The notes under the pieces were generated by a model, which saw only the letters and a list, made by a program, of their open reading frames with translations, was not told where the DNA came from and made no database searches. 64,000 nucleotides of DNA from Tortispora ganteri. Its lineage: Eukaryota. The translations under genes were made by a program, and so were the position numbers. The DNA lies in assembly GCA_003707115.1 (NCBI GenBank), contig PPNB01000010.1, positions 62,001 through 126,000 on the forward strand, written 5' to 3'. Below are positions 2,435 through 64,000 of this stretch, piece after piece (within the stretch, counting starts at the first letter, position 1; every line of letters begins with the position of its first letter).

Positions 2435-2844
2435 TAATAACTTTGCAGTTAAGCGATAGCACAATATAGAAATGCAATAGTCAAACTGTGGCGGACGTAC
2501 TGATGTAAAATGCAAAGTTTCTTGCCTGCACAAATACAACTTTTTTTACTATTAAAATAAAACAAACATGTAGTCAGGATAAATTGCGCACCAAAATAAG
2601 AAGAAACAAGTTCTTGAAATTGATTTCGGTTTCTCGGCTTAGTCAGGGATCGGGGAACTAACTACAATCTAAATACGACACATAGAGTATATAATTAACA
2701 CCAAAAACATATATACGAATTCGTATACATAATTCAGTGAAAATACATATTTAACAACTTAGAAATTATAGAGAAAAGAGAAAAAAAAAGACAAACAAAT
2801 AAACGCCAGTAAATAGTCGTGCTAGTATACAGGCAGCAAACATG

Positions 2845-4791
2845 TTACATAGGGATGTCACTACCAGCTGCAACGGCAGGTGCGGATTCAGATTTTCCAA
2901 AATAATCGTCCATTTCCGCATCTAACTGATCAGCAGTTTTCCGGCTGGGTCGCCCAGCCTTTTTGGAAGCAGTAGCGGGTTTCGCCTTTTTAGTCTTCTT
3001 AGCAGCTTTCTTAGGAGCAGTTTTAGAAGACGCAGAAGCAGGGGCGGCAATACGATCAGCCAATTCTTTCTTGGTGGGATCAAAAATCAGTTCCACCTAA
3101 ATAGTAAACTCGTTAGTTCTGAAACAATAACGATCAGTGTGCTTCAAGCAAAAGTAGTATACTTACCTTCATCTTTCTTTTTCCTCCATCGACTTTAGTT
3201 CCATTGAACTTCTCGAAAGCTTTGTTGCCATCCCCCATTTTGTTGAATTCAATGGTGCATACACCGGTGGATTTGCCTTGTTCAGTATATACAAGTGTAG
3301 CTTTTCGAATAGATCCAACTTCAGAAGAGAAATATTCCTATACAAATGGTTAGTTGCCATAATCAAAATCCAAAAACTGAATATGAAAACAAAAACAAAA
3401 TATCGAAATATAAGCAACCAACAAAGAACACACGTATAGAAAAGAAACACAAAAAGCTGAAAGAAAACATCATAATTAAACCATGAGAAGCATGCGACTA
3501 GGAAATTTAAGCCAGAGTAGTTACAGGGAATATTTAAACGAAGAATCCGCGAAAAAGCTTTGACAACGCAACTACTATACATTCGCAGCCTTGGCTTGAG
3601 TATCAAATACTGCATACCATCAAAAATCATAAATTCAACTGAATTAGATGTTAATGAGTATTTGAATTCTTCCATGCTGGATATTAAAACAATGGTTTCA
3701 AGCAATAATTTAGCGAAAACGTAGAGCGTCCTTAGTCACGATTTGCTATATGGCTGCGAAAAATATGGACTATACACCACAAGCGTAAAAAGTAGTTCAA
3801 AACAGACAACGTTGCCTCTTGAGTTATGTAAAGAAATAATCAACTCATAGAAAGTGCAAATATCATTGACTGCAACCGAGTACCGCACATAAGTGGCAAT
3901 AGTAAAATGCATATCAGCGCAAATAGACAAAACTAGCTTTACCATTAAGGGATGGTGCGAAAAAAATATAACCAGATCACTATCTCTTGCATTCAATTTG
4001 TCAACTATGAAAATATAAATCATAGTTTACGAGTTCGCAATCAGCCAGAAGTTTCCTGTGTATCTCTGCAATTGTACTATTATTCGATAAGTAACAATAC
4101 ATACCTTAATCGAAGAGATAGGAACATCTTGAGGCTATAAAAGAGTTAGTTTACGGCTCATAGAGAACGAATAAGTGCTTTCTTTTGAAAAAGAAGAGCA
4201 CGCGAAAATTGGTATACACTGGAAACCGCGATAATTATAATATGTATAGCTTTAGAACGAGTGCATTCATTTTCAAAAGAGCTATACAAAATGTTGGCGG
4301 GTATGCGAGATAGGCATGGTGCTGAGGTATTATATCACGCATGGTGGTAATAATTCACCTATATCAATGTTCGACAAGGTCGAGCAAGTGTTTTGAAACC
4401 AGATGGTACCAAATGAACCCGTACTCATACCGGATAAATAAACCGGGCCAAAGTATGCTTCACACATCCAACTTATAATTATTCACTCGGTATTCCAGTG
4501 CATTATAAGAAAACCTAGAAAATTGAACAAGCTAATGTCAATCTTCTATAACGGTTTTTGTATTCAAACACATACCAGTCCAGAAATCACAACTTTTGCA
4601 GTTGGTTGTTGTTGAACCGGTGTTTTAGCTTCAGCTTTTTTATTTTCCGGTTTTTTGGCTGACGATTTCTTTCCAACTTTTCCTGCAGCAGCAACAGCAC
4701 CCCCGGCTTTGCGGCGATGAATCGGGCGGCGGGCACCACGAGGTTTACTGGCAAGAATTTCGTCAAGAGACTTATCCAAATTAACAGACAT
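2845..4791 (-). CDS. YRA1: mRNA export adaptor Yra1 (REF/Aly family), 4 exons, 222 aa
   Basis: Exons 4791-4576 (MSVNLDKSLDEI...VVISGL), 4134-4105 (PQDVPISSIK), 3337-3167 (EYFSSEVG...GKSTGVCTIEF...FNGTKVDGGKRKMK) and 3096-2845 (VELIFDP...LDAEMDDYF) join in frame. All introns are GT...AG and phase 0. REF-N box, RRM and REF-C box are all present. Confidence 0.95.
3097..3166 (-). other. YRA1 intron 3 (70 nt)
   Basis: GTAAGT donor 3166-3161, AACTAAC branch near 3118-3112, TAG acceptor 3099-3097. Confidence 0.9.
3338..4104 (-). other. YRA1 intron 2 (767 nt, structured)
   Basis: GTATGT donor 4104-4099, AACTAAC branch 3355-3349, TAG acceptor 3340-3338; U-rich 3' region; several perfect 8-9 bp inverted repeats. 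Confidence 0.9.
4135..4575 (-). other. YRA1 intron 1 (441 nt, structured)
   Basis: GTATGT donor 4575-4570, AACTAAC branch 4151-4145, TAG acceptor 4137-4135; nested inverted repeats. Confidence 0.9.
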
Positions 4792-5139
4792 TCTATATAT
4801 TCGGAATTTTATAAGAGAAATACCGGGATTAGTAGAGATTTGTCAAAATCCGATGTGCACAGCGGCGGTAGAAGTACACGGTAAGTTGACATGGGTGGAA
4901 AAGAAGGCGGGAAAAGAACATCGCTTAACTTTAATTAATATTTAGCATGCATTATTGGATGAACATCTAACGTGCACTTTTCAACAGATTCAGCTCCCTG
5001 ATTTTTAATTAATTAGCAGATCTACAGATATGTGATTTAACTTCTAAATAAAGAATCTATTAAGTTGTTTCAAGACATTAGGAAAATATTCTGAGAGTTG
5101 TTGTCAGTATCACAGACGTAGTTGTGCTAAATGTAGCGG

Positions 5140-6993
5140 TTATTCTTCGTAGACGAAGCCAATATGATCGCGATTATCATCTAAAATGCGCGCATACTCG
5201 AGTAGGAGAAGGTACAGATAAATTTCGACATCTTCCTTTCTAAGTACCTTGCTTGCATGCTGTCTGCCATTGAGTGCTATGCGTTCAGCTATGCCTTGAT
5301 GCGGCTCTATAATGTCATCAAAACCTGTAAAGTATGTGAGTAGTCTTTGACTGTCTTCGAAAGTGTTGTCCATGGGGATGAAATGAAGCCAGGGAACTAT
5401 TCGAGAGTCATGCCATTCGCGGAATATTGTTGCCTTAAATGGCAAACTCTTGCTCTGCAAGAACGGTTTGAATCGTGCGGAGAAGGAATGACCGTCTACG
5501 TCAAGCAGATATTTGTACTGGTACTGATCTGAACTGCTCATCATTGGCAGCTTTCTGTATAATTTGCCTAAGAAATCGCAGTCTGGTACACACCACTGTA
5601 AGTCATAAAAACCAACATCTGAGTGCGATTCTAGGTACTCCTTCGTATCTACTTCACAGAAGCTGAATTCGTCAACCCCATCGGCGTTTGTCCGTTGGCA
5701 AAAAAGTATGGCCGGCTTGCGATTCGGGTAGGATGCATTGAACGTGTCAATTAAAATGTTCCGATGGATTTTCATGTATGTGTTTTTTTTCTCTATGCCA
5801 CCTGTAGTAATTCCTCTCCACATTGCGACATCGCGTTTTTCTGTCCAGTCTGTATCATGCTCACTATTATATCCATACATACCCTCGTTGATGTAGTATT
5901 TATTACCCGGTAGCCTGATATCTAAATGTATACTCGTTTTACATTCCGAGAATATAGGCACCAGTTCCCTGATCTTTTTCATAGTTGGAGGGATTGATAA
6001 GAACCCATGCTTGTCATGGATGAGCGGCCCAACAGTGCATATATCGGTTGCTGTTGTGTAGTTGGCCACGAGACCATTATAAGTATAAAGCTTGCGTATA
6101 TCGCTGACAGGGTTGTTTTTATTTGCCACCCAATGTCTGACAGGAGAGTCTGGTGGACAAGATTTGTAGGCATGGCTGAATACTGGTTCACCTGAATGAT
6201 CAGTTTCCCTGATTTTCTTTAACTCCTTCTTACTAATACGAAAGAAGTCCTGTGTGAACTTGTTTGAAGTGATTTCAAAATGCCGGTCAGTCAACTGCAT
6301 TGCAAGCTGTTCGTGTTGTTGCACTTTATTATAGGGAAGCACTACTCTTGGCTGATCGTGAATATTCACAAGAAGCTCCATGTCCGGTAGGTATTTTGAG
6401 ATATGCCTTATCATGTCCCTGACATCTGTGATACGATAACCATGCTGGTTACTTGTAGCCTTACCATTATGTATTTTCACTGTAGCGATATACTTTATCT
6501 TTTTTGCGCCGTTCATGCGTTTACGTATCTCGGCTGGGGATATTGACCAAAATAGTTTGAGGTCTTCATAGATGGCGTCAAAATGGTCAAAATCTACACA
6601 ACCCTTTTTCTTTGCGTACTCAAACCACTTGTCAAATCGTGGTGGTGGCGCGCGTCCATGCATTTCCTCGTATCGCTGTACGTACTCTTTAAGCGTATAC
6701 TGACGATATATGGGACTCTTGGTTAAGTACGCTTCAAGGTACAGTTGAACCACTGGATCTGAGGATTTAGGGAACTCTTTCAGAGCCTTTACTGAATCAT
6801 CAAACTCTTTCAGGCTCTCTGATGCTACCGATATAGCATCTTCACCGAAAGAGGACATATCCATCCATGGCTCAAACTCATCGCGCTCTGGTTCCTTGAA
6901 CCAGAGCAGCATATACAGGATATTGACCACTACGGCCCCTGCAAGCAGCAGCTTGTATTTTTGACGCAGAATAAGAAGAATCTTTAGTTTCAT
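5140..6993 (-). CDS. CAP10-like glycosyltransferase family 90 protein (Cxt1/Cap10-type), copy 1
   Basis: N-terminal signal anchor; Y...HGRAPPPRFDKWF, NIHDQPRV, WRGITTGG, YKYLLDVDGHSFSARF, KATIFREWHDSRIVPWLHFIP and LLLLEYAR motifs typical of fungal GT90. Confidence 0.88.
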   Translation of the reverse strand: MKLKILLILRQKYKLLLAGAVVVNILYMLLWFKEPERDEFEPWMDMSSFGEDAISVASESLKEFDDSVKALKEFPKSSDPVVQLYLEAYLTKSPIYRQYTLKEYVQRYEEMHGRAPPPRFDKWFEYAKKKGCVDFDHFDAIYEDLKLFWSISPAEIRKRMNGAKKIKYIATVKIHNGKATSNQHGYRITDVRDMIRHISKYLPDMELLVNIHDQPRVVLPYNKVQQHEQLAMQLTDRHFEITSNKFTQDFFRISKKELKKIRETDHSGEPVFSHAYKSCPPDSPVRHWVANKNNPVSDIRKLYTYNGLVANYTTATDICTVGPLIHDKHGFLSIPPTMKKIRELVPIFSECKTSIHLDIRLPGNKYYINEGMYGYNSEHDTDWTEKRDVAMWRGITTGGIEKKNTYMKIHRNILIDTFNASYPNRKPAILFCQRTNADGVDEFSFCEVDTKEYLESHSDVGFYDLQWCVPDCDFLGKLYRKLPMMSSSDQYQYKYLLDVDGHSFSARFKPFLQSKSLPFKATIFREWHDSRIVPWLHFIPMDNTFEDSQRLLTYFTGFDDIIEPHQGIAERIALNGRQHASKVLRKEDVEIYLYLLLLEYARILDDNRDHIGFVYEE

Positions 6994-7021
6994 CTTATTC
7001 TGTTAAAAACATTAGATACTG

Positions 7022-7934
7022 AGGAGAGAGACAAAATATCTGCTCCCTCTAGGAAAAGTAATAAAAGCTCACCTAAAGGGACAGCTTTTATGCCAAGAAC
7101 TTTACGTAAAATAAGGTGTGAGGCCCGCACCTTATTTACGCACATATGAATAGACAGTCTTTATGATTTTTTTTGTCATTTAAGAAAGAAAACTACTTAT
7201 CACTTGAATTTCTGTATTTTAGCTGCTAAATATTTAAATAACAGTAGTAATGCTGCCTTTAGCTATCTGCATCATAATGTCTACACATGCTTGGGGCGAA
7301 ATAAGGTTCATACTTTCCCCTCCCAGCTCCCACGTTATTGGCTTAGCACGTTTCAAGCTCGAACTGCTAGAAGTAGACGTTACATTACGAATCTACTGAA
7401 CATCTTCACAGACTAGTATCACATTTATGCAATACTATAAACAGTGGCTTGTATTTTCTATGTAGAGCAAATAGAATCATTGATTCTCTGTCAATACTTT
7501 CAGCGCGTCAGAGATCTAAGAGAGAGAGAAAAAAATCTGCTTGCTTATAGGAAAAGTAATAAAGGATCGCCTAAAAAGGGGCACATTTTATGCCAAGAAC
7601 TTTACGCAAAATAAAGTGCGAACACCACACCTCATTTACGTACGCATGTATACCTATTAAAGGTGTCTATTAAATTAATTAAATTAACCCAAAGAAAAAA
7701 AAAATAACTACAACTCGGTTGAGTTTGTATTTTAGCTGCTGAATGCACAATTTACAACAGTATTGCCGCATTGAGCAACTTGTATCATAATATCCATGAA
7801 AGCTTGTGGTTGCATAAGGTTCGGCTTGGTACATTCAGCTCTATCTATTGGCTTAGCATGCTACAAGCTCGACCTGGTGACAGTAGATGTTACATTACGA
7901 CTTGACTGAACCCCATATGCAAGTATCATACTTA
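7022..7934. repeat. Diverged direct repeat, two ~410-bp copies (~7022-7427 and ~7519-7934)
   Basis: Collinear shared blocks, e.g. ttttatgccaagaactttacg at 7086-7106 and 7586-7606, tgtattttagctgct, tattggcttagca, gttacattacga. Confidence 0.85.
7234..7392 (-). pseudogene. Possible decayed aldehyde dehydrogenase fragment inside the repeat
   Basis: Minus frame reads ...SSLKRAKPITWELGGESMNLISPQACVD..., resembling the ALDH glutamate active-site region (KPVTLELGGKSPNI...DAD). It is bounded by stops, and the second copy is more degraded. Confidence 0.35.
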
Positions 7935-19283: not shown

Positions 19284-20555
19284 CTAAAAGGAAAGCGTCA
19301 GTGCGAAAATAGCTGGTAGGCAGAGAAGTAGGAGTGATTGATAAGTACCACTGGCAGATGAGTCGTAATGGAGGCCAGAAGGTGTTGTAGTTTGTTTGGT
19401 GGTGCTTTGTGCGCCAGCAGCAGCAGTTCCCATTACGATAACATCTGTTTTTGTCTTCACCGTGGCAGTATCAAGTGTTTTTCCTCCAGCAGTACCAGCA
19501 ACTGTTTCCTGCTTCACAGTGTTCTTAAGGTACGGCACTGCCTGTACCTTTTCAGTGACATAGCATAGTGAGTTATCTTCGCACTTGGTAATAGTAACGG
19601 TAGTGACATAGTATCCAGTAGGAATAGCAGGTACTGCATTTCCTGATGCAGGCTTGTATTGATCAGTACTGACCGTATTAACAGGAAGAGCAGTACCAGT
19701 AGCTTCTCCAGAGGGCAAAGAGTCACTGCCAATGTTTTTAGATGCAGCTGGAGAAGCGGTTTGAGAGGTAGTCTGCAATGCAGCTGACGAAATTTCAAAT
19801 GTATGATCCGCAGAAGAGCTTCGTAAGTTAGGCTCAACAAACCGATCTGACGAATAGAGCGCGCTAGCAGAAGCGCTGTTTGATGCAGATACTGAAGATG
19901 ATCTGATATTCGCGGCGATTGAAGAACTTTGTACTGCAGCAGACGATAAACTGTCGAAAACAGCCGCAGCAGACGATGAACTTGCAATAACATCCGCGGC
20001 AGACGATGAACTGTCGAAAACAGCCGCAGCAGACGATGAACTTGCAATAACAGCCGCAGCAGACGATGAAATTGCAATAACAGCCGCAGCAGACGATGAA
20101 CTTGCAATAACATCAGCAGCAGACGATGAACTTTCAAAAACATAAGCAGCAGATGATGAGGTTGAGAGACCTATATCAGCCGATGTAGAGCTTGAAATAC
20201 CTATGTTAGAAGTGCTAGGTGAATAGATGGCAACACTAGAGCTAGGTTGAGCAGAGGGCACAGAAGAACTGGGGACAAATATCGAAGAATAACCTGCCGT
20301 AGCTAGACAAGTTGTCAGCCCGCTAGGCATAGGATCCGGTGCCGGTCCTGGACACAAAATAGGAACCGGAATATAAGTCGCTTGATAGCAATCACATGCA
20401 TTATCATAGTAACTAACAGTGGAAGAAGTATATACTGTATAAGGAGGAATAGCACTTTGGCTGACTATTCCCGCTGTAGGAGCAGGAATATTCGTAGTTG
20501 CTAGCACAATAGAAAAGAAATAAGATAAAACAAAGATACAAAGCGAAGAATGCAT
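19284..20555 (-). CDS. Ser/Ala/Thr-rich, probably GPI-anchored cell-wall protein
   Basis: Signal peptide, 10-aa tandem repeats, flocculin-like VTTVTITKCEDNSLC motif, hydrophobic C-terminal tail after a small-residue omega region. Confidence 0.75.
   Translation of the reverse strand: MHSSLCIFVLSYFFSIVLATTNIPAPTAGIVSQSAIPPYTVYTSSTVSYYDNACDCYQATYIPVPILCPGPAPDPMPSGLTTCLATAGYSSIFVPSSSVPSAQPSSSVAIYSPSTSNIGISSSTSADIGLSTSSSAAYVFESSSSAADVIASSSSAAAVIAISSSAAAVIASSSSAAAVFDSSSSAADVIASSSSAAAVFDSLSSAAVQSSSIAANIRSSSVSASNSASASALYSSDRFVEPNLRSSSADHTFEISSAALQTTSQTASPAASKNIGSDSLPSGEATGTALPVNTVSTDQYKPASGNAVPAIPTGYYVTTVTITKCEDNSLCYVTEKVQAVPYLKNTVKQETVAGTAGGKTLDTATVKTKTDVIVMGTAAAGAQSTTKQTTTPSGLHYDSSASGTYQSLLLLCLPAIFALTLSF
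19935..20160 (-). repeat. Intragenic 30-bp minisatellite (~7 copies, SSSAAAVIAS/SSSAAAVFDS)
   Basis: Unit approx. gcagcagacgatgaacttgcaataacagcc repeated every 30 bp. Confidence 0.9.
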
Positions 20556-21176
20556 GTTTGAGAAATATGCTCTATACTAATGAAAGAGCAATAACTGAAA
20601 CATATCCTTATATATATATATTCAGATAAGCCGATTTGAGATGCACGAATTTAGGATTTCATACTTCTTTTGTCATAACTCAAATAAGACATAATTTCAA
20701 AGGCAGCAGCAGCAATTGGTTATCAAGGACTTCCATTTCAATCGATCTCGGCCTACTTCAGCTAAATTAACGGCGAACGTAGGCTTCGAAAGCTATTCAA
20801 AGAACCACCTTTCAAATAACTCGGAAATAAACCACACAAGAACCTTAGCTGCCATATATTAACTTATGGTAAAAAAACTTTATGGATCAAAGACTTTTGG
20901 CAAACAGGCCGGAAAACAAAACTAGCAAAAACCCTTTCAGAATGTGCTCATGGATAAATTCATGGTCGGATTAATCTCAGGAATTCTTTATGTCGCATAA
21001 TGTAAACTTGGATCCCAAAAAAAAAAAAAAAAAATCGAAAGGTGATACCAAGCAAAAGCTCGGAGACGGTTAAACGACAGATGTGTGCCAAATTATAAAA
21101 CCATATTAGAGCGTCTGTTAGAGTTTCTGTTGTGCGCAATTAGCAAAAATCTCGAGAAAGATAGTATACAGCTAAC

Positions 21177-35510: not shown

Positions 35511-36007
35511 TTAAAGCACAAGACGGAAGATGTCGTTGTACAAGAAATAGCCATTGTCGTTTTTCAAAAGAAACACCTGGGAGAACTTCTTGGGTGGATC
35601 GTCGTCGGTATAAACGTCGCCAGTGACCATGATCAAGACACTGTTGCCGTCAACAGGCTGAGGATCTATGGTTTGCGGATCGTGTTTGATGCGTTGGAAG
35701 GGGAACTCGGCGAGTCGTTGACCGATCGCACTGGCTCCTTGAAGGTTGAATGTCTCGAACGTGAACATAGAATTGTCCCTATACATGGCAACAAGTTTCT
35801 GACGCTCATCGTTGCCTGCGTCAAAGGACGAATAATAGAATTGAGTAAACTCCTCTATGATATGTTAGTACGTTAATTACAGTTGGTCTAGACCACACTT
35901 ATTGATACTTACTTGCTAAGGTATTAATGTCGGCTATGTCGAATGTTAGTAATTATTTCGTTTCAATTTCTGTTATGCAATTATGCACGACCCAATTACT
36001 TACCCAT
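35511..36007 (-). CDS. NTF2: Nuclear transport factor 2 (3 exons, 122 aa)
   Basis: Exons 36007-36004 (ATGG), 35933-35913 and 35854-35511; introns of 70 and 58 nt (GTAAGT...TACTAAC...TAG). Protein MADINTLAKEFTQFYYSSFD...MYRDNSMFTFE...FSQVFLL...NDIFRL. Confidence 0.93.
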
Positions 36008-36363
36008 TGCGCTACTAAAAAGGAAAGAAGCTAAACAGAAACAAAAAATGTGCAGTTAGAAAGAACTGGTTGCGGTGGGCAAATAGAAGTAAATGTTCTA
36101 TTATTGCAATGGTTACCCGGCTTAATGGATGGATTTTTCCTCCATCTATATACGCATATGACTACTGTACGGCACTACCCCCACCCTCCCCGCAATTCTG
36201 GCACCGTATATTCTGATCATTAAATTCTATTTTGCATACTATCCAACCTACACAACCAGCTAATTTAACCACTTCACTGCGTATACCGACCTAATTTCCT
36301 CGCTATATTTCCCGCTAAACTTATTGTTTACGCGCTCACTCTTATTCCCGCTCGCGCAGAAAA

Positions 36364-50618: not shown

Positions 50619-51977
50619 ATGTCTCGCCCGCAAAATATCGGCATCCACGCTATCGAGGTCTACTTCCCCTCACGATACGTTGACCAAAACGAGCTCGAAA
50701 AGTTTGACAACATCCCTACTGGCAAGTATACAATCGGACTCGGCCAGAAGAAAATGGCATTTGTCGACGATCGCGAAGATATTTACTCCTTGACTCTGAC
50801 TGTCGTTAGTAACCTTTTTCGTAACTACAATATTGACCCCAACTCCATTGGTCGTCTCGAGGTAGGAACTGAAACCGTTATCGACAAAGCCAAATCTGTC
50901 AAATCCGTATTGATGCAGTTAATGGGCGATAACACTGACGTAGAGGGTATTGACAACCTCAACGCGTGTTACGGTGGCTTTGCCGCTTTCTTAAACTCCA
51001 TCGCCTGGATCGAATCTTCGGCCTGGGACGGCCGATATGCGCTCGTCGTCTCTGGCGATATCGCCCTCTACGCGAAGTCTGCTGCTCGCCCTACTGGCGG
51101 TGCTGGCGCCGTTGCAATGCTTATTGGCCCCAATGCTCCTATCGTTGTCGAGCCTATTCGGGGCTCCCACATGGAGCATGCCTACGACTTCTACAAAGCG
51201 GATCTAAACTCTGAGTATCCTATCGTTGACGGTAAGTACTCGCTCACTTGCTACACTAAGTCTCTTGACAATGCTTACAACGCATTTGTACGCAAGCTTG
51301 CCAAATCTCGTGAGCAACTCAACGGTTCCGCAGACCCGCTCCCTGAGCTTGGAATTGACTTCTTCGACTACACTATCTTCCACGCACCAAACTGCAAGTT
51401 GGTCACTAAATGTTACGCGCGTCTTTTGTATAATGATTACCTGCGAAATCCAGACCACCCTGAGTTTGCTTCTGTCCCTACCGAATACAAGGACATGGAC
51501 CAGGAGGCTTCCCTCGTGGACAGGAACGTCGAAAAGACATTCATGGCGCTGGCCAAAGAGAGATCTGCCAAACGTCTGACTCCTTCCCTGTTTTTGCCCT
51601 CGAACTCTGGAAACATGTATACGGCAACCGTATTTGGTGCTCTCTGCTCCCTTTTGAGTCAAGTTCCTGCTGACCAGTTATTGGGCAAGCGCGTCGGAGG
51701 ATTCTCCTATGGCTCTGGCCTCGCTTCTACCTTCTTCTCGTTGGTAGTCAAGGGCGACGTTTCTGAGATTCAAAAAACACTTAACTTAGAGGCAAGACTC
51801 GAATCCCGCAAATCTGCTTCCCCGGAGGAATACGAAAAAGCTGTCGATTACCGTGAAGCTGTTCATGCTGCTAAAAGCTACACGCCTTCTGGTGACATTG
51901 ATAGTCTGTTCCCCAACACCTATTATCTTACTGCCATCGACGATCTCTATAGACGAAGCTACGCCATCAAAGAATAA
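50619..51977 (+). CDS. ERG13: Hydroxymethylglutaryl-CoA synthase
   Basis: [24 protein letters not shown] catalytic motif, GNMYTA, FSYGSG. Confidence 0.97.
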
Positions 51978-52137
51978 ACTAACTGATTGATGTTAATTCC
52001 TGATCTTTGGCGTTTTTTCCGCGATAATAATACTTTAGTAATATCAATGAGCTGTATACGTGCGTCGAACACACCTTGCTATTGTCCCAAAGGTTCACCA
52101 TCTGTAAACAAAGTCTCTTTACTGTACGGGCCCCACA

Positions 52138-60584: not shown

Positions 60585-62213
60585 ATGGCCAGGAAAAGAA
60601 GCTACACACCCGATATCCCACCCAACGCCCATGTGCCGATAACCGATCAAAAAGCGAAATTTCTCTTTCTTTCTCTGCGACGATCAACCGCGTGCACTAT
60701 CAGCCACTTAGCACTTCCATCCGCCATGGAAGTGAACATTTCGCCAAAAGAACAGGTTCAGCGACACGCTTTTGACGATCAGACGCTGGAATTACCTGAC
60801 TCTTTCGATTTCCAATCTCTTCCCGATGCTCTGATGCAGCATTATGATCATTCCATGTTTGACCACCCGGGCAAAGATAACAATGAATTCAACGGTGCCT
60901 TTTCAGCTAAATCATTTATTTCTGATTCCGATGTTACTATCCCAGCGCTGGTACCTCCTACACCTAATTCTCTGGAACTACATGCCACGCAAAGCCAAGT
61001 GCTGCTAAATCAAGAATCGGGTTTCGCTTACGATGCCCAATTCGACGCTGATTTTATGACTCCTTTAATTTCTCCCGCCGTGAATCCACTGGAGAGTTAT
61101 AACTTGGCCCCGACACCATTGCTGCAGCCTCTCCCTTTACCAATACTCGATAACTCTTACGAGCCTACAACAATCGATCCTACCACTGCATTTACTGCTC
61201 CTGCACCTGACCCTCTCATATACTCTCAGCGATCGCGACCCCCTTCACAAAACTCTAAAGCTCAAAGACAGTCAAATGGAAGAGTGTCGAAACCGCAGTC
61301 TCCAATGCTGAAAGCGCAAAACAGCCCTGCTCTGCGGAAGTCCAATAGACTCAGTATAACTCAGCAGTCGCCATTAATTCTCTCTAATGTTTCGCCGACT
61401 GCGGACTCTGACTCTGTCAGCCCTCAAGACCTTCCTAGTGGTTTTACTAAGGATGAACTGCGTCACTCGATGCAAAGTAGCAATGGAGCAGCTGAATTAG
61501 GCCCTGGTATGAATTCTAACGACTCGTTAGAATACGAGCCTGTTACTCCTGCAATGCTAATGAAAATCCACACTGTGGAAGTTGAGGCACCAAAAACAGG
61601 TGATCAAAGGACTCGAACAGTGTCTAGAGCGGGATCTAAATCTAAGCTACCAGGAAGTGCAGGGCGACCGCGTAAGAACTCGATAGTACGTACAGAAGAT
61701 GAAACTAGACCTTCTGGTGCAGATTCTGCCTCTACAGGTAGCCGGCGAGCCTCAATGACTATCTCTCCACGTATTGTGCCGAAGGACCATGGTCATGGTG
61801 ATATTACTATTAAAGATCCCGATACTCAGAAGACTAAAATTCTGCTGGAGCCTAATGCTACTGCAGGCATGAGTTCAGAACAGATTCAGCAGATGTTAGA
61901 GTCGCGTTCAAACTATCAGAACATTTTAGATGGTAAGCATTCGGAGTTAGGGCTGCAGTATCCGGAACATCTGAGCCAGAACTTGAATGCAAAGCGCACC
62001 AGTCACAAGCTCGCTGAGCAAGGTAGGAGGAATCGTATTAATGCAGCACTGCATGAGCTAGGTGCTCTGCTATCTTCATCGACTGATTGTGGACCAGCAT
62101 CTAAAGCGATAACTGTGGAGAATGCTATAGAGCACATAAAGAGACTTCGATCTGACCTGAACGATGCTCGAGAACGGATTAAGGAGCTCGAAGCACAATG
62201 TGCTTCAAATTAG
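60585..62213 (+). CDS. PHO4: Pho4/Nuc-1-type bHLH transcription factor
   Basis: SNYQNILDG.H..LGL.YP..LS..L..KRTSHKLAEQGRRNRIN...SKAITVENAIEHI. Start is either 60585 or 60726 (gccATGg). Confidence 0.8.
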   Translation: MARKRSYTPDIPPNAHVPITDQKAKFLFLSLRRSTACTISHLALPSAMEVNISPKEQVQRHAFDDQTLELPDSFDFQSLPDALMQHYDHSMFDHPGKDNNEFNGAFSAKSFISDSDVTIPALVPPTPNSLELHATQSQVLLNQESGFAYDAQFDADFMTPLISPAVNPLESYNLAPTPLLQPLPLPILDNSYEPTTIDPTTAFTAPAPDPLIYSQRSRPPSQNSKAQRQSNGRVSKPQSPMLKAQNSPALRKSNRLSITQQSPLILSNVSPTADSDSVSPQDLPSGFTKDELRHSMQSSNGAAELGPGMNSNDSLEYEPVTPAMLMKIHTVEVEAPKTGDQRTRTVSRAGSKSKLPGSAGRPRKNSIVRTEDETRPSGADSASTGSRRASMTISPRIVPKDHGHGDITIKDPDTQKTKILLEPNATAGMSSEQIQQMLESRSNYQNILDGKHSELGLQYPEHLSQNLNAKRTSHKLAEQGRRNRINAALHELGALLSSSTDCGPASKAITVENAIEHIKRLRSDLNDARERIKELEAQCASN

Positions 62214-62511
62214 GCCGACCCAGCTGGTTTACTGGATCGACCAAACATACTTACAATCACATATACTCATACACATTTATTAGGAGCAAGAAAAAAATAT
62301 ACCTCCCTAAAAAAGTGTTTGTTTATTACATTTAGAATTTATAACTACTGAAAAAAAAAATGTATATAAATTTCTTTTATCTCTGATTAATTGTGATCTC
62401 GCTTGTTTTAAGATAAGGTTTACGAGCGATGTCGTCAAAATCTAAAGCGCCTCTTACTTCTATCCCCTTAGAAACCCGGAACAAATATTGCGCTACAATA
62501 TTTGCGCAATA

Positions 62512-64000
62512 ATGAAAGCTGCAGTTACACCAAAAGCCGATGAAACGGTGAACAGCAAGTCATCGGCTCCTTCTGTTACCGTTCATGAGGATTCCAGCAC
62601 TACACCTTCCACAACTATAGGTAGAGCTCCAGATGGTCGGGTCTTCGAGGTACCAAAAACTAACGACATGATATCCTCGCTATTTAACCCCTTTGTCAAA
62701 CATACACTCGTTGACTGGATTGTGCTAGCTTTCTTGGGCTCATACTTTGCTATATATTTCCTACTGAGTGGTGCTGTGCGACAGTACACTATCCTCGCGC
62801 TTTTCGCTTTCTGGAGACTCAGCTACAACGCTGGTATAGGCTATCTCCTCCACGTGCAATCAAAAAATGCAAGGCTCGTCAAATGGGCTAGAGACCTGGG
62901 CGTCTTTGACGACAAAACAGCGATTCATAAGCTTGTCAAACATGAACTCACCGCTAAAATGGGAAGCGACTACAAGTTCGAAAACGTACCCGATGAGTTC
63001 AACACTTGGCTAATATTTCGTATACTGGTGGATCTCATTCTATGTTCGGATTTTACTACTTATTTTCTGTTTGGTCTAACATGCTATAATGCACTCGATT
63101 CTCCTGTGTATTTAGTCCTCTTCCGTTGGTTAATAGGCATCGGCCTCCTAGTATTCAACCTCTGGGTCAAAGTAGATGCACACAGAGTAGTCAAGGATTA
63201 TGCGTGGTACTGGGGTGACTTCTTCTTCTTGGAAGATCTTGAACTGACTTTTGATGGTGTCTTTGAAATGGCCCCTCACCCTATGTACTCTGTAGGCTAT
63301 GCAGGCTATTATGGAGGTTGTATCATTACTGCTTCCTATAAACTCCTCTTCGCTTCCTTGTTGGCACATGCCGCTCAATTCGTTTTCTTGACTCTGGTTG
63401 AAAATCCTCATATTGAGAAGACATACAACCCTTCTCCTCCCCATAAACGTCTTAATTCCGTGGCAAATCTGGATAGTAGTGTCGCAAAATCTTCCTCAGC
63501 TTCTCTTAATACTGAAAACGACCTAGTTTCTGATTTATCAGATGATTCAGATGCTTTCCCCGCTATGGTAGCTTTCTTCAATTTTCACGTTTATAGAGTT
63601 TCAGATGTCCTTACTATGCTTTTAGCTCTCTATTCACTTTTTCCACTTCTGCTCCCCAGCCGTCGAATATACGATTATTTTGCAGCCAGTCTCAGCCTAT
63701 CATGGATACTGTTTAACTGTATCGGTTTGGGTATTATCTTACGCAAACAGAGTGAACACCAGTCTTGGACTAAACTCTTTGTCAAGTACGGCCGCACTCC
63801 TGTCCAAGCTTTCGAGGATTGGAAGTCAGTTTACAACCTCTGCAACGTTCTCACCTACACAAGTTTTGTAGTGGTGGTGTTGCGTGAATTGGACTGGCCA
63901 CCGCGAACTGATAACGGTTTTAGATACGTATCTGGCCTTATGCTGATTGCACTTCACCTATGGGTAAGTACCTCCATTTATGATTCACTGGGACAGTTTG
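62512..64000 (+). CDS. CHO2: Phosphatidylethanolamine N-methyltransferase Cho2 (5' part, runs off the window)
   Basis: Manual translation from ATG 62512 gives GRAPDGRVFEVPKTNDMISSLFNP...FWRLSYNAGIG...EFNTWLIFR...WVKVDAHRVVKDYAWYWGDFFF...FDGVFEMAPHPMYSVGY. It is absent from the ORF track because no stop lies within the window. Confidence 0.93.
   Translation, partial: MKAAVTPKADETVNSKSSAPSVTVHEDSSTTPSTTIGRAPDGRVFEVPKTNDMISSLFNPFVKHTLVDWIVLAFLGSYFAIYFLLSGAVRQYTILALFAFWRLSYNAGIGYLLHVQSKNARLVKWARDLGVFDDKTAIHKLVKHELTAKMGSDYKFENVPDEFNTWLIFRILVDLILCSDFTTYFLFGLTCYNALDSPVYLVLFRWLIGIGLLVFNLWVKVDAHRVVKDYAWYWGDFFFLEDLELTFDGVFEMAPHPMYSVGYAGYYGGCIITASYKLLFASLLAHAAQFVFLTLVENPHIEKTYNPSPPHKRLNSVANLDSSVAKSSSASLNTENDLVSDLSDDSDAFPAMVAFFNFHVYRVSDVLTMLLALYSLFPLLLPSRRIYDYFAASLSLSWILFNCIGLGIILRKQSEHQSWTKLFVKYGRTPVQAFEDWKSVYNLCNVLTYTSFVVVVLRELDWPPRTDNGFRYVSGLMLIALHLWVSTSIYDSLGQF

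What the first reader, a model, noticed from the sequence alone, without database searches (positions are those of the whole stretch)
4175..4503. YRA1 intron 1 folds into a long branched RNA, with G-U wobbles favouring the transcribed strand
Seen, reading minus-strand RNA: AUGCACUGGAA (4503-4493) pairs with UUCCAGUGUAU (4224-4214). The helix continues ACC/GGU, GUGA/UCGC and UAAUUAUAA/UUAUAAUUA (4481-4473 with 4240-4232). It then branches into a perfect 9-bp hairpin (4243-4251/4280-4288) and a stem GUUGG-A-UGUGUGA (4472-4460) / UCGCAUA-CCCG-CCAAC (4308-4293). A separate GUGCU-C-UUCUUU/AAAGAA-AGCAC hairpin (4175-4201) lies just before the branch point. Several pairs are G-U only on the pre-mRNA strand and would be A-C on the other. 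Inference: this is a selected RNA structure that removes ~290 nt between donor and branch point, acts as a protein-binding switch, or is an intron-hosted ncRNA.
Basis: partly seen in the sequence, partly recalled or inferred. Interest (0 to 1): 0.7.

Follow-up and report, generated by a model that had tools for sequence, protein, structure and literature searches.

The report
Self-pairing first intron of yeast YRA1
The first intron of a budding-yeast mRNA-export gene folds on itself through a long helix of the kind already known to compact long yeast introns for splicing; the fold is real, but nothing here shows that it was selected.

Summary
The helices are there. On the minus strand lies a four-exon YRA1/Mlo3 orthologue. 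Its closest protein is from Tortispora caseinolytica. Intron 1 (4575-4135, 441 nt) is followed by a 30-nt micro-exon and a 767-nt intron 2.

Intron 1 folds at -112.7 kcal/mol (z -4.53). A 32-bp long-range helix closes 290 nt, with pair probability mostly 0.9-0.97 (one 4-bp segment 0.67). It persists unchanged in a 1531-nt context.

Three parts of the finding do not hold:
- The G-U strand asymmetry is not supported. The antisense strand folds equally well (-112.3, z -3.83) and folds the central domain better.
- Rfam and box-motif scans give no sign of a hosted ncRNA.

The helix ranks in the top 2-3% against shuffles and against other windows of this sequence, which is suggestive only. No orthologous intron DNA or RNA reads could be obtained, so covariation and expression are untested.

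Best reading: a compound "zipper"-type compaction of a long yeast intron, possibly helping micro-exon inclusion. That is a new member of a known kind.

The more striking feature is in intron 2. A strongly strand-specific hairpin there buries the branch point and the 3' splice site.

The parts
4576..4791 (-). YRA1 exon 1 (72 codons, ATG at 4791)
   Evidence: The ORF ends at a GUAUGU donor. It is 93% identical to residues 1-72 of P0001.
4135..4575 (-). Intron 1, 441 nt: GUAUGU 4575-4570, branch box AACUAAC 4151-4145 (A at 4146), UAG 4137-4135
   Evidence: MFE -112.7 kcal/mol, z -4.53.
4510..4558 (-). 5' hairpin (6+11+2 bp), 17 nt downstream of the donor
   Evidence: P 0.92-0.96. On its own -15.7 kcal/mol, z -4.96, 0 of 200 shuffles. 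Antisense -12.1, z -3.35.
4468..4503 (-). 5' arm of the long-range helix (11+3+4+9+5 bp)
   Evidence: All pairs are kept in the 1531-nt context fold. At least 20 of the 27 core pairs are present in 500 of 500 Boltzmann samples.
4214..4240 (-). 3' arm of the long-range helix (pairs with 4503-4473)
   Evidence: The arms cofold at -26.9 kcal/mol.
4293..4297 (-). CCAAC, partner of GUUGG 4472-4468; continues the helix past the three-way junction
   Evidence: P 0.91.
4243..4288 (-). Internal hairpin with a perfect 9-bp stem, branching from the long helix
   Evidence: Inverted repeat I8, 100% complementary. P 0.96.
4175..4201 (-). Branch-point-proximal hairpin (5+6 bp, UUCA loop), 24 nt upstream of the branch box
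   Evidence: P 0.93-0.99. -10.1 kcal/mol, z -3.15. Antisense -10.2, z -2.52.
4105..4134 (-). 30-nt micro-exon 2 (ten codons, PQDVPISSIK)
   Evidence: It is flanked by UAG and GUAUGU. Its ten residues align with conserved RRM residues in 10 of 10 more distant homologues. Only the public model of the closest relative lacks them.
3338..4104 (-). Intron 2, 767 nt (GUAUGU ... AACUAAC ... UAG)
   Evidence: MFE -182.7 kcal/mol, z -3.06 with 20 shuffles.
3335..3442 (-). Intron-2 terminal hairpin that pairs the branch box (3358-3349 with 3422-3413) and the 3' splice site (3344-3335 with 3442-3433)
   Evidence: P 0.96 and 0.94. Sense -26.2 kcal/mol, z -4.84, 0 of 200. Antisense -10.4, z -2.44.
3167..3337 (-). 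Exon 3 (57 codons, RRM core)
   Evidence: 95% identical to P0001.
3097..3166 (-). Intron 3, 70 nt (GUAAGU ... AACUAAC ... UAG)
   Evidence: Removing it restores the frame, giving a 222-aa product.
2845..3096 (-). Exon 4 with stop codon
   Evidence: 85% identical to the C-terminus of P0001.

Best explanation
Intron 1 of this yeast's YRA1 gene is a long intron, with 430 nt from donor to branch adenosine. Its RNA collapses into three helical domains.
- A 5' hairpin (4558-4510).
- A 290-nt central domain closed by a 32-bp imperfect helix (4503-4468 with 4240-4214 and 4297-4293).
- A branch-point-proximal hairpin (4201-4175).

About 50 nt of single strand are left between the donor and the open, non-consensus branch box. 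I read this as a compound version of the 'zipper stem', or intron self-complementarity, known from long S. cerevisiae introns. It compacts the intron so that the donor meets its own nearby branch point. In this gene that would also favour the proximal branch point and acceptor, and hence inclusion of the 30-nt micro-exon, over a jump to the acceptor of intron 2.

Shown: the gene model, the helices, their thermodynamic robustness and the open branch box. Inferred: that the fold forms in vivo, that it aids splicing or exon inclusion, and that it is under selection.
For: Thermodynamics:
- The helices exist at high predicted probability (0.91-0.97 for four of the five helix segments, 0.67 for the fifth).
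- They are unchanged when 1531 nt of pre-mRNA are folded.
- At least 20 of the 27 core pairs are present in 500 of 500 Boltzmann samples.
- Blocking the 5' arm costs 19.4 kcal/mol.
- Whole intron z -4.53. 5' hairpin z -4.96 and proximal hairpin z -3.15.

Geometry:
- The helix starts 72 nt from the donor and ends 62 nt before the branch box.
- The branch box is open, with P(unpaired) 0.84.
- Only 4 MFE pairs cross the intron boundary.

Context:
- All three YRA1 introns carry AACUAAC, while both NTF2 introns in the window carry UACUAAC.
- The micro-exon is real.

Literature:
- Zipper stems are common in long yeast introns: 32 of 88 by DMS-guided prediction (PMC12350175, passages).
- They enhance splicing in RPS17B, RPS6B and APE2 (PMC2536676, passages).
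- One is needed by an RPL7B intron with a weak branch point (PMC12311795, abstract and passages).
Against: Selection is not shown:
- No orthologous intron could be fetched.
- The two same-species runs show 0 differences in intron 1. That is uninformative: they show only 5-6 differences across the 2051 nt laid.

The fold is strand-symmetric. A DNA-level inverted repeat would look the same.

The statistics are modest: 5 of 200 shuffles, 9 of 290 and 7 of 286 genomic windows do as well.

The distance argument fails in silico:
- The MFE graph distance from donor to branch point is 49, longer than in 199 of 200 shuffles (mean 17.3).
- The Boltzmann mean is 17.9 with the helix and 20.3 with its 5' arm blocked.

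The linear linkers (72 + 62 nt) exceed the 85-nt limit in the published zipper-stem definition.

The public gene model of the closest relative skips the micro-exon. I could not check that model against transcripts.
Confidence: 0.5

Rival explanations
1. The helix is a neutral by-product. It would be an inverted repeat that arose at the DNA level (a local palindromic duplication or a relic of a small mobile element) or by chance in an AT-rich intron. It forms in the RNA but is not maintained for any function.
For: - The two strands fold equally well, and the central domain folds better as antisense.
- Ranks against controls are only 2-3% in a window that was scanned for exactly such features.
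- The longest exact complement is reached in 50 of 1000 shuffles.
- The predicted 5'SS-to-branch-point distance does not depend on the helix.
Against: - No second copy of any part of intron 1 lies in the 64-kb window. The best other match is 14 nt, E 0.28.
- Three separate elements of the intron each fold well beyond shuffles.
- The branch box is left open.
- Published surveys find such stems enriched in yeast introns over controls (PMC12350175).
Confidence: 0.3
2. The fold is a regulatory element of Yra1 autoregulation. Excess Yra1, an RNA-binding and RNA-annealing protein, would bind or remodel the intron-1 structure and so change splicing or export of its own pre-mRNA. This is analogous to Rpl7 acting on the RPL7B zipper stem.
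For: - YRA1 in S. cerevisiae is autoregulated through its intron. Yra1 is reported to bind the intron and inhibit splicing (PMC11585973, passage). Multiple intronic modules control the fate of the pre-mRNA (PMC2864733, passages).
- Long YRA1 introns with deviant branch points are reported across hemiascomycetes (PMC2911113, passage).
- Here 3 of 3 YRA1 introns have AACUAAC.
- A zipper stem that a protein disables is a documented mechanism (PMC12311795).
Against: - No competing alternative structure is predicted: the helix is in 500 of 500 samples.
- The S. cerevisiae intron lies after codon 95 (nt 285). By my recalled alignment that corresponds to intron 2 here, not intron 1.
- Intron 2 carries the more regulatory-looking feature, with branch point and acceptor sequestered.
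- No binding data exist.
- In Y. lipolytica the decay route already differs from that of S. cerevisiae.
Confidence: 0.15
3. The intron hosts a stable non-coding RNA (a snoRNA or other) that is processed from the lariat.
For: Only the high degree of structure. Some yeast introns do host snoRNAs (PMC4937481, passages).
Against: - Rfam: 0 matches at E<=1 in 2500-5500 and 0 at gathering score in the whole window.
- No C box, near-C box or D box in the intron.
- No AGNN tetraloop. The loops are UUCA, UUAGCU and larger.
- No RNA run was available to look for a stable product.
Confidence: 0.04

Closest known systems
Zipper stems of long S. cerevisiae introns (RPS17B, RPS6B, APE2, RPL7A, RPL28; PMC2536676, PMC12350175)
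   Same: A stable stem pairs a segment downstream of the donor with a segment upstream of the branch point. The intron's linear 5'SS-to-branch-point distance exceeds 200 nt, and the splice signals themselves stay open.
   Different: The stem sits 72 and 62 nt from the signals. The linear linker is therefore about 134 nt, beyond the 42-85 nt of the published definition. It comes within range only if the two flanking hairpins are discounted. The organism is a Tortispora-like yeast, far from Saccharomyces. There are no probing or mutational data.
Intron self-complementarity enforcing exon inclusion in two-intron RPL7A (Howe and Ares 1997; seen only as a title in reference lists and in one passage of PMC12311795; content otherwise recalled)
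   Same: A multi-intron yeast gene with an internal exon. Each flanking intron folds on itself, and cross-intron pairing is minimal (4 MFE pairs).
   Different: The internal exon here is only 30 nt. Exon skipping was not measured. The paper itself is not held.
RPL7B intron 1: a zipper stem acting as splicing enhancer for a weak branch point, disabled by binding of its own protein (PMC12311795)
   Same: An autoregulated gene class, a non-consensus branch box, and a long-range stem between donor and branch point.
   Different: No conserved alternative structure and no protein site was found here. The helix dominates the predicted ensemble.
The S. cerevisiae YRA1 intron (766 nt, nt 286-1051; PMC2864733)
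   Same: The same gene, a long intron, a deviant branch box, and an N-terminal position in the RRM.
   Different: By position it probably matches this gene's intron 2 (767 nt), not intron 1. Intron 1 and the micro-exon have no counterpart in S. cerevisiae. That alignment is recalled and was not tested here.

Membership tests
Zipper stem (definition of PMC12350175) | [quoted passage not shown] | tested here: met
   The arms are at intron positions 73-108 and 279-283 plus 336-362. The branch adenosine is at position 430.
Zipper stem (definition of PMC12350175) | At least 6 bp, at most 5 bulged nucleotides, high helix confidence | tested here: inconclusive
   27 bp with 4 unpaired nucleotides, and predicted P 0.67-0.97. 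The published confidence measure rests on DMS data, which do not exist here.
Zipper stem (definition of PMC12350175) | [quoted passage not shown] | tested here: met
   72 nt and 62 nt.
Zipper stem (definition of PMC12350175) | [quoted passage not shown] | tested here: not met
   The linear linkers sum to about 134 nt. Only about 50 nt remain single-stranded if the hairpins 4558-4510, 4201-4175 and 4168-4156 are discounted.
Zipper stem (functional sense, PMC2536676) | Short structural branch-point distance that depends on the stem; disruption lowers splicing and compensation restores it | tested here: not met
   In silico only. MFE distance is 44-49. The ensemble mean is 17.9 with the helix and 20.3 with the 5' arm blocked. 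The splicing assays cannot be done with these tools.
Exon-inclusion self-complementarity (RPL7A type) | A two-intron gene whose introns each pair internally; loss of the pairing causes exon skipping | tested here: inconclusive
   The architecture is met. Exon skipping cannot be tested: no RNA runs were listed.
YRA1 autoregulatory intron | A long intron in YRA1 with a non-consensus branch box | tested here: met
   441 nt with AACUAAC, against UACUAAC in 2 of 2 NTF2 introns.
YRA1 autoregulatory intron | Positional orthology with the S. cerevisiae intron, and dependence on Yra1 level | not tested
   The S. cerevisiae boundary is at nt 285. Its correspondence to intron 2 here rests on a recalled alignment. 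The dependence on Yra1 level needs an experiment.
Rfam ncRNA / box C/D snoRNA | A match to a covariance model, or C and D boxes near a terminal stem | tested here: not met
   0 Rfam matches. No C or D box.
Rnt1p (RNase III) target hairpin | A stem capped by an AGNN tetraloop (motif recalled) | tested here: not met
   The loops are UUCA, UUAGCU and larger.
MITE-like mobile element relic | Terminal inverted repeats plus further copies in the genome | tested here: inconclusive
   The inverted arms are present. There is no other copy in the 64-kb window. The whole genome is not held.

The most novel reading that the evidence does not exclude
The two long YRA1 introns that flank a 30-nt micro-exon form a paired structural device. 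Intron 1 is pre-compacted with an open branch point and so would be spliced readily. Intron 2 buries its branch point and acceptor in a strand-specific hairpin and so would be spliced only when that hairpin is opened. Yra1, itself an RNA-annealing protein, could set the balance among full splicing, intron retention and micro-exon skipping. That would make the pre-mRNA fold the sensor of an ancestral autoregulatory circuit, of which S. cerevisiae keeps only the second intron.
Probability: 0.1. Interest if true: 0.6.

Novelty: new member of a known kind. Interest (0 to 1): 0.3.

Why it matters
If the fold is functional, zipper-type intron compaction extends to an early-branching budding-yeast lineage and to a gene whose splicing is the target of autoregulation. 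It would also suggest how a yeast spliceosome handles a 30-nt exon between two long introns.

Two practical points hold regardless:
- The public gene model of the closest relative appears to skip a conserved ten-codon micro-exon.
- The better candidate for a regulatory RNA structure in this gene is the hairpin at the end of intron 2.

Tried and rejected
Searches that gave nothing:
- Whole genome of the window: not held.
- Metagenome scan with the exon-3 peptide: 252 pattern matches, none confirmed. Four of the six peptides used are identical in the closest relative, so that collection evidently holds no Tortispora-like DNA.
- Sequencing runs: no RNA holder listed.
- The two DNA holders X1 and X2 are near-identical to the window and show no difference in intron 1. 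X5 and X3 laid nothing.

Analyses that failed or were dropped:
- The first duplex-energy shuffle script timed out. RNAduplex proved unsuitable because it chains many weak helices. I replaced it with composite-helix counts.
- Candidate long introns at 19823-20452 and 51232-52038 lie inside long ORFs and were dropped as controls.
- A 12-bp exon-1/intron-2 helix (4640-4629 with 3462-3451, P 0.71) was rejected as chance. Its longest exact complement (11 nt) is matched in 109 of 1000 shuffles.
- Intron 1 and intron 2 share no similarity.

Papers:
- Not held: PMC1464842, PMC1858660, PMC1370319 and PMC25003. What I say about them is second-hand or recalled.
- In print: 10 papers hold both 'Tortispora' and 'intron' (9 listed). 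No listed title or abstract concerns YRA1.
Full report
**What is at the site.** The minus strand of 2845-4791 carries a four-exon gene.
- Exon 1: 4791-4576.
- Intron 1: 4575-4135 (441 nt, GUAUGU ... AACUAAC at 4151-4145 ... UAG).
- Exon 2: 4134-4105, only 30 nt.
- Intron 2: 4104-3338 (767 nt, GUAUGU ... AACUAAC ... UAG).
- Exon 3: 3337-3167.
- Intron 3: 3166-3097 (70 nt, GUAAGU ... AACUAAC ... UAG).
- Exon 4: 3096-2845, stop included.

The spliced frame is open and gives 222 residues. Exon 3 finds one protein in the large database. It is named by its source as a hypothetical RRM protein of Tortispora caseinolytica NRRL Y-17796 (P0001, 213 aa), 95% identical. Exons 1 and 4 are 93% and 85% identical to it. 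More distant hits are Yra1/Mlo3-type proteins of Lipomyces, Myxozyma, Nadsonia, Schizosaccharomyces and others.

**The micro-exon is real.** P0001 joins the end of exon 1 directly to exon 3. All 10 of the 10 more distant homologues carry ten residues at that point, and these align with the micro-exon's PQDVPISSIK. The public model of the relative therefore seems to skip a conserved piece of the RRM. This matters for the finding. It means that the branch box at 4151-4145 and the acceptor at 4135 are used, and that intron 1 is a separate intron rather than the first third of a 1.2-kb one. A second micro-exon (21 nt) lies in the NTF2 gene of the same window, so such exons are not foreign to this genome.

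**Checking the observation.**
- 4503-4493 with 4224-4214 (11 bp)
- 4491-4489 with 4227-4225 (3 bp)
- 4486-4483 with 4231-4228 (4 bp)
- 4481-4473 with 4240-4232 (9 bp)
- 4472-4468 with 4297-4293 (5 bp)
- the perfect 9-bp hairpin 4288-4280 with 4251-4243
- the hairpin 4201-4175

Mean pair probabilities are 0.91-0.99, except 0.67 for the 4-bp segment. The further stem UGUGUGA/UCGCAUA is not predicted. All these helices are kept, with the same probabilities, when 1531 nt of pre-mRNA are folded. Only 4 MFE pairs cross the borders of intron 1. At least 20 of the 27 core pairs of the long helix occur in 500 of 500 Boltzmann samples. Forbidding its 5' arm raises the MFE by 19.4 kcal/mol.

**Is it more than chance?**

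| Control | Result |
|---|---|
| Whole intron against dinucleotide shuffles | -112.7 against -89.2 ± 5.2, z -4.53, 0 of 100 |
| Whole intron, second shuffle set | 0 of 200 |
| 5' hairpin alone | z -4.96 |
| Proximal hairpin alone | z -3.15 |
| Central domain alone | z -3.52 |
| Long-range composite helix of ≥27 bp in shuffles | 5 of 200 |
| Longest exact complement (10 nt) in shuffles | 50 of 1000 |
| Other 441-nt windows with equal or lower GC-corrected MFE | 9 of 290 |
| Other windows with a long-range helix of equal or better energy | 7 of 286 |

The intron is thus unusually structured, but at the 2-3% level.

**The claimed strand asymmetry fails.** Only 2 of the 32 long-range pairs and 8 of 133 MFE pairs are G-U.

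| Element | Sense | Antisense |
|---|---|---|
| Whole intron | -112.7 (z -4.53) | -112.3 (z -3.83) |
| Central domain 4214-4503 | -80.6 (z -3.52) | -84.3 (z -4.43) |
| Isolated arms | -26.9 | -23.4 |
| 5' hairpin | -15.7 | -12.1 |
| Proximal hairpin | -10.1 | -10.2 |

Only the isolated arms and the 5' hairpin lean to the sense strand.

**Comparative and expression evidence could not be obtained.**
- No genome is held for the window.
- The metagenome scan found no relative.
- No RNA run was listed.
- The two DNA runs that hold the locus are near-identical to it. They show 0 differences in intron 1, 3 substitutions and one 3-nt insertion in intron 2, and 2 substitutions in exons. That is too few to say anything.
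- Covariation, the decisive test, is open.

**Not a known ncRNA.**
- Rfam gives 0 matches at E<=1 in 2500-5500 and 0 at gathering score in the whole window.
- There are no C or D boxes in the intron.
- There are no AGNN tetraloops.
- No other copy of any part of the intron lies in the window.

**How it most likely works.**
- Long S. cerevisiae introns commonly carry 'zipper stems' that bring donor and branch point together (PMC2536676; PMC11585973 section 4.2).
- DMS-guided prediction finds them in 32 of 88 introns. They are enriched over shuffled controls in many Saccharomycetaceae, yet poorly conserved in sequence (PMC12350175).
- In RPL7B such a stem is required because the branch box is weak, and the gene's own protein disables it (PMC12311795).

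Intron 1 has the same ingredients:
- a 430-nt distance from donor to branch point;
- a branch box (AACUAAC) that departs from the UACUAAC of the window's two NTF2 introns;
- a stable stem between the two signals;
- an open branch box, with P(unpaired) 0.84.

With its two flanking hairpins the fold leaves about 50 nt of single strand between donor and branch point. Because a 30-nt exon and a second long intron follow, compaction would also favour the proximal acceptor and hence inclusion of the micro-exon. That is the logic proposed for RPL7A by Howe and Ares. I saw only that paper's title and one passage about it; the rest is recalled.

**Evidence against this reading.**
- By the strict published definition the stem is too far from the signals.
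- The MFE graph distance from donor to branch point is 44-49. That is longer than in 199 of 200 shuffles and lies in the range that PMC2536676 associates with poor splicing.
- The ensemble mean distance is 17.9 with the helix and 20.3 without it. The predicted distance therefore does not depend on the helix.
- I call the intron zipper-like in how it probably works, not a member by definition. I give the reading a probability of 0.5.
- A neutral inverted repeat gets 0.3, a Yra1-responsive element 0.15 and a hosted ncRNA 0.04.

**Relation to YRA1 autoregulation.** In S. cerevisiae the single 766-nt intron starts after nt 285 (PMC2864733). By my recalled alignment that is the position of intron 2 here (767 nt). 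Intron 1 and the micro-exon have no S. cerevisiae counterpart. Y. lipolytica YRA1 also has more than one intron and a deviant branch box (PMC2911113).

**Noticed on the way.** Intron 2 ends in a hairpin (3442-3335).
- The branch box pairs with 3422-3413 (10 bp, P 0.96).
- The acceptor, together with the first three exon bases, pairs with 3442-3433 (10 bp, P 0.94).
- The hairpin is strongly strand-specific: -26.2 kcal/mol, z -4.84, 0 of 200 on the sense strand, against -10.4, z -2.44 on the antisense.

**Verdict.** The kind is known: intron self-complementarity, or a zipper-type stem. Selection and function are unproven. Interest is modest.

Noticed in passing
window 3335-3442 (minus strand), end of YRA1 intron 2: A hairpin pairs the branch box GGCAACUAAC (3358-3349) with 3422-3413, and the 3' splice site plus the first three exon bases (3344-3335) with 3442-3433. 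Both helices are 10 bp, P 0.96 and 0.94. The sense strand folds at -26.2 kcal/mol (z -4.84, 0 of 200) and the antisense at only -10.4 (z -2.44). It is a candidate splicing-inhibitory element. Runs X1 and X2 carry a 3-nt insertion behind 3414, inside one arm.
   Followed up: partly
window 4105-4134 (minus strand): A 30-nt micro-exon encodes ten conserved RRM residues. The public protein model of the closest relative (P0001, Tortispora caseinolytica NRRL Y-17796) lacks exactly these residues, while 10 of 10 more distant homologues have them. The cause is probably an annotation error, or possibly a real exon-skipped isoform.
   Followed up: partly
window 35855-36014 (minus strand): The NTF2 orthologue has a 4-nt coding exon 1 (ATGG), a 70-nt intron, a 21-nt micro-exon and a 58-nt intron. 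Both branch boxes are UACUAAC, in contrast to AACUAAC in all three YRA1 introns.
   Followed up: partly
window 4053-4124 (minus strand): The micro-exon (4124-4108) pairs with the start of intron 2 (4073-4053) in 5+6+5 bp (P 0.80-0.99). This encloses the donor of intron 2. Local z is only -1.99 (5 of 200 shuffles).
   Followed up: partly
window 6616-7056 and 62182-62622: These 441-nt windows have the most negative GC-corrected folding energies in the window (residuals -33.6/-28.3 and -31.5 kcal/mol). I did not look into them.
   Followed up: no
window 19284-20576 (minus strand): A long ORF rich in serine/alanine repeats (SSSSAAAVIA-type units) looks like a cell-wall or mucin-like protein. I saw it only while checking a false intron candidate.
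   Followed up: no
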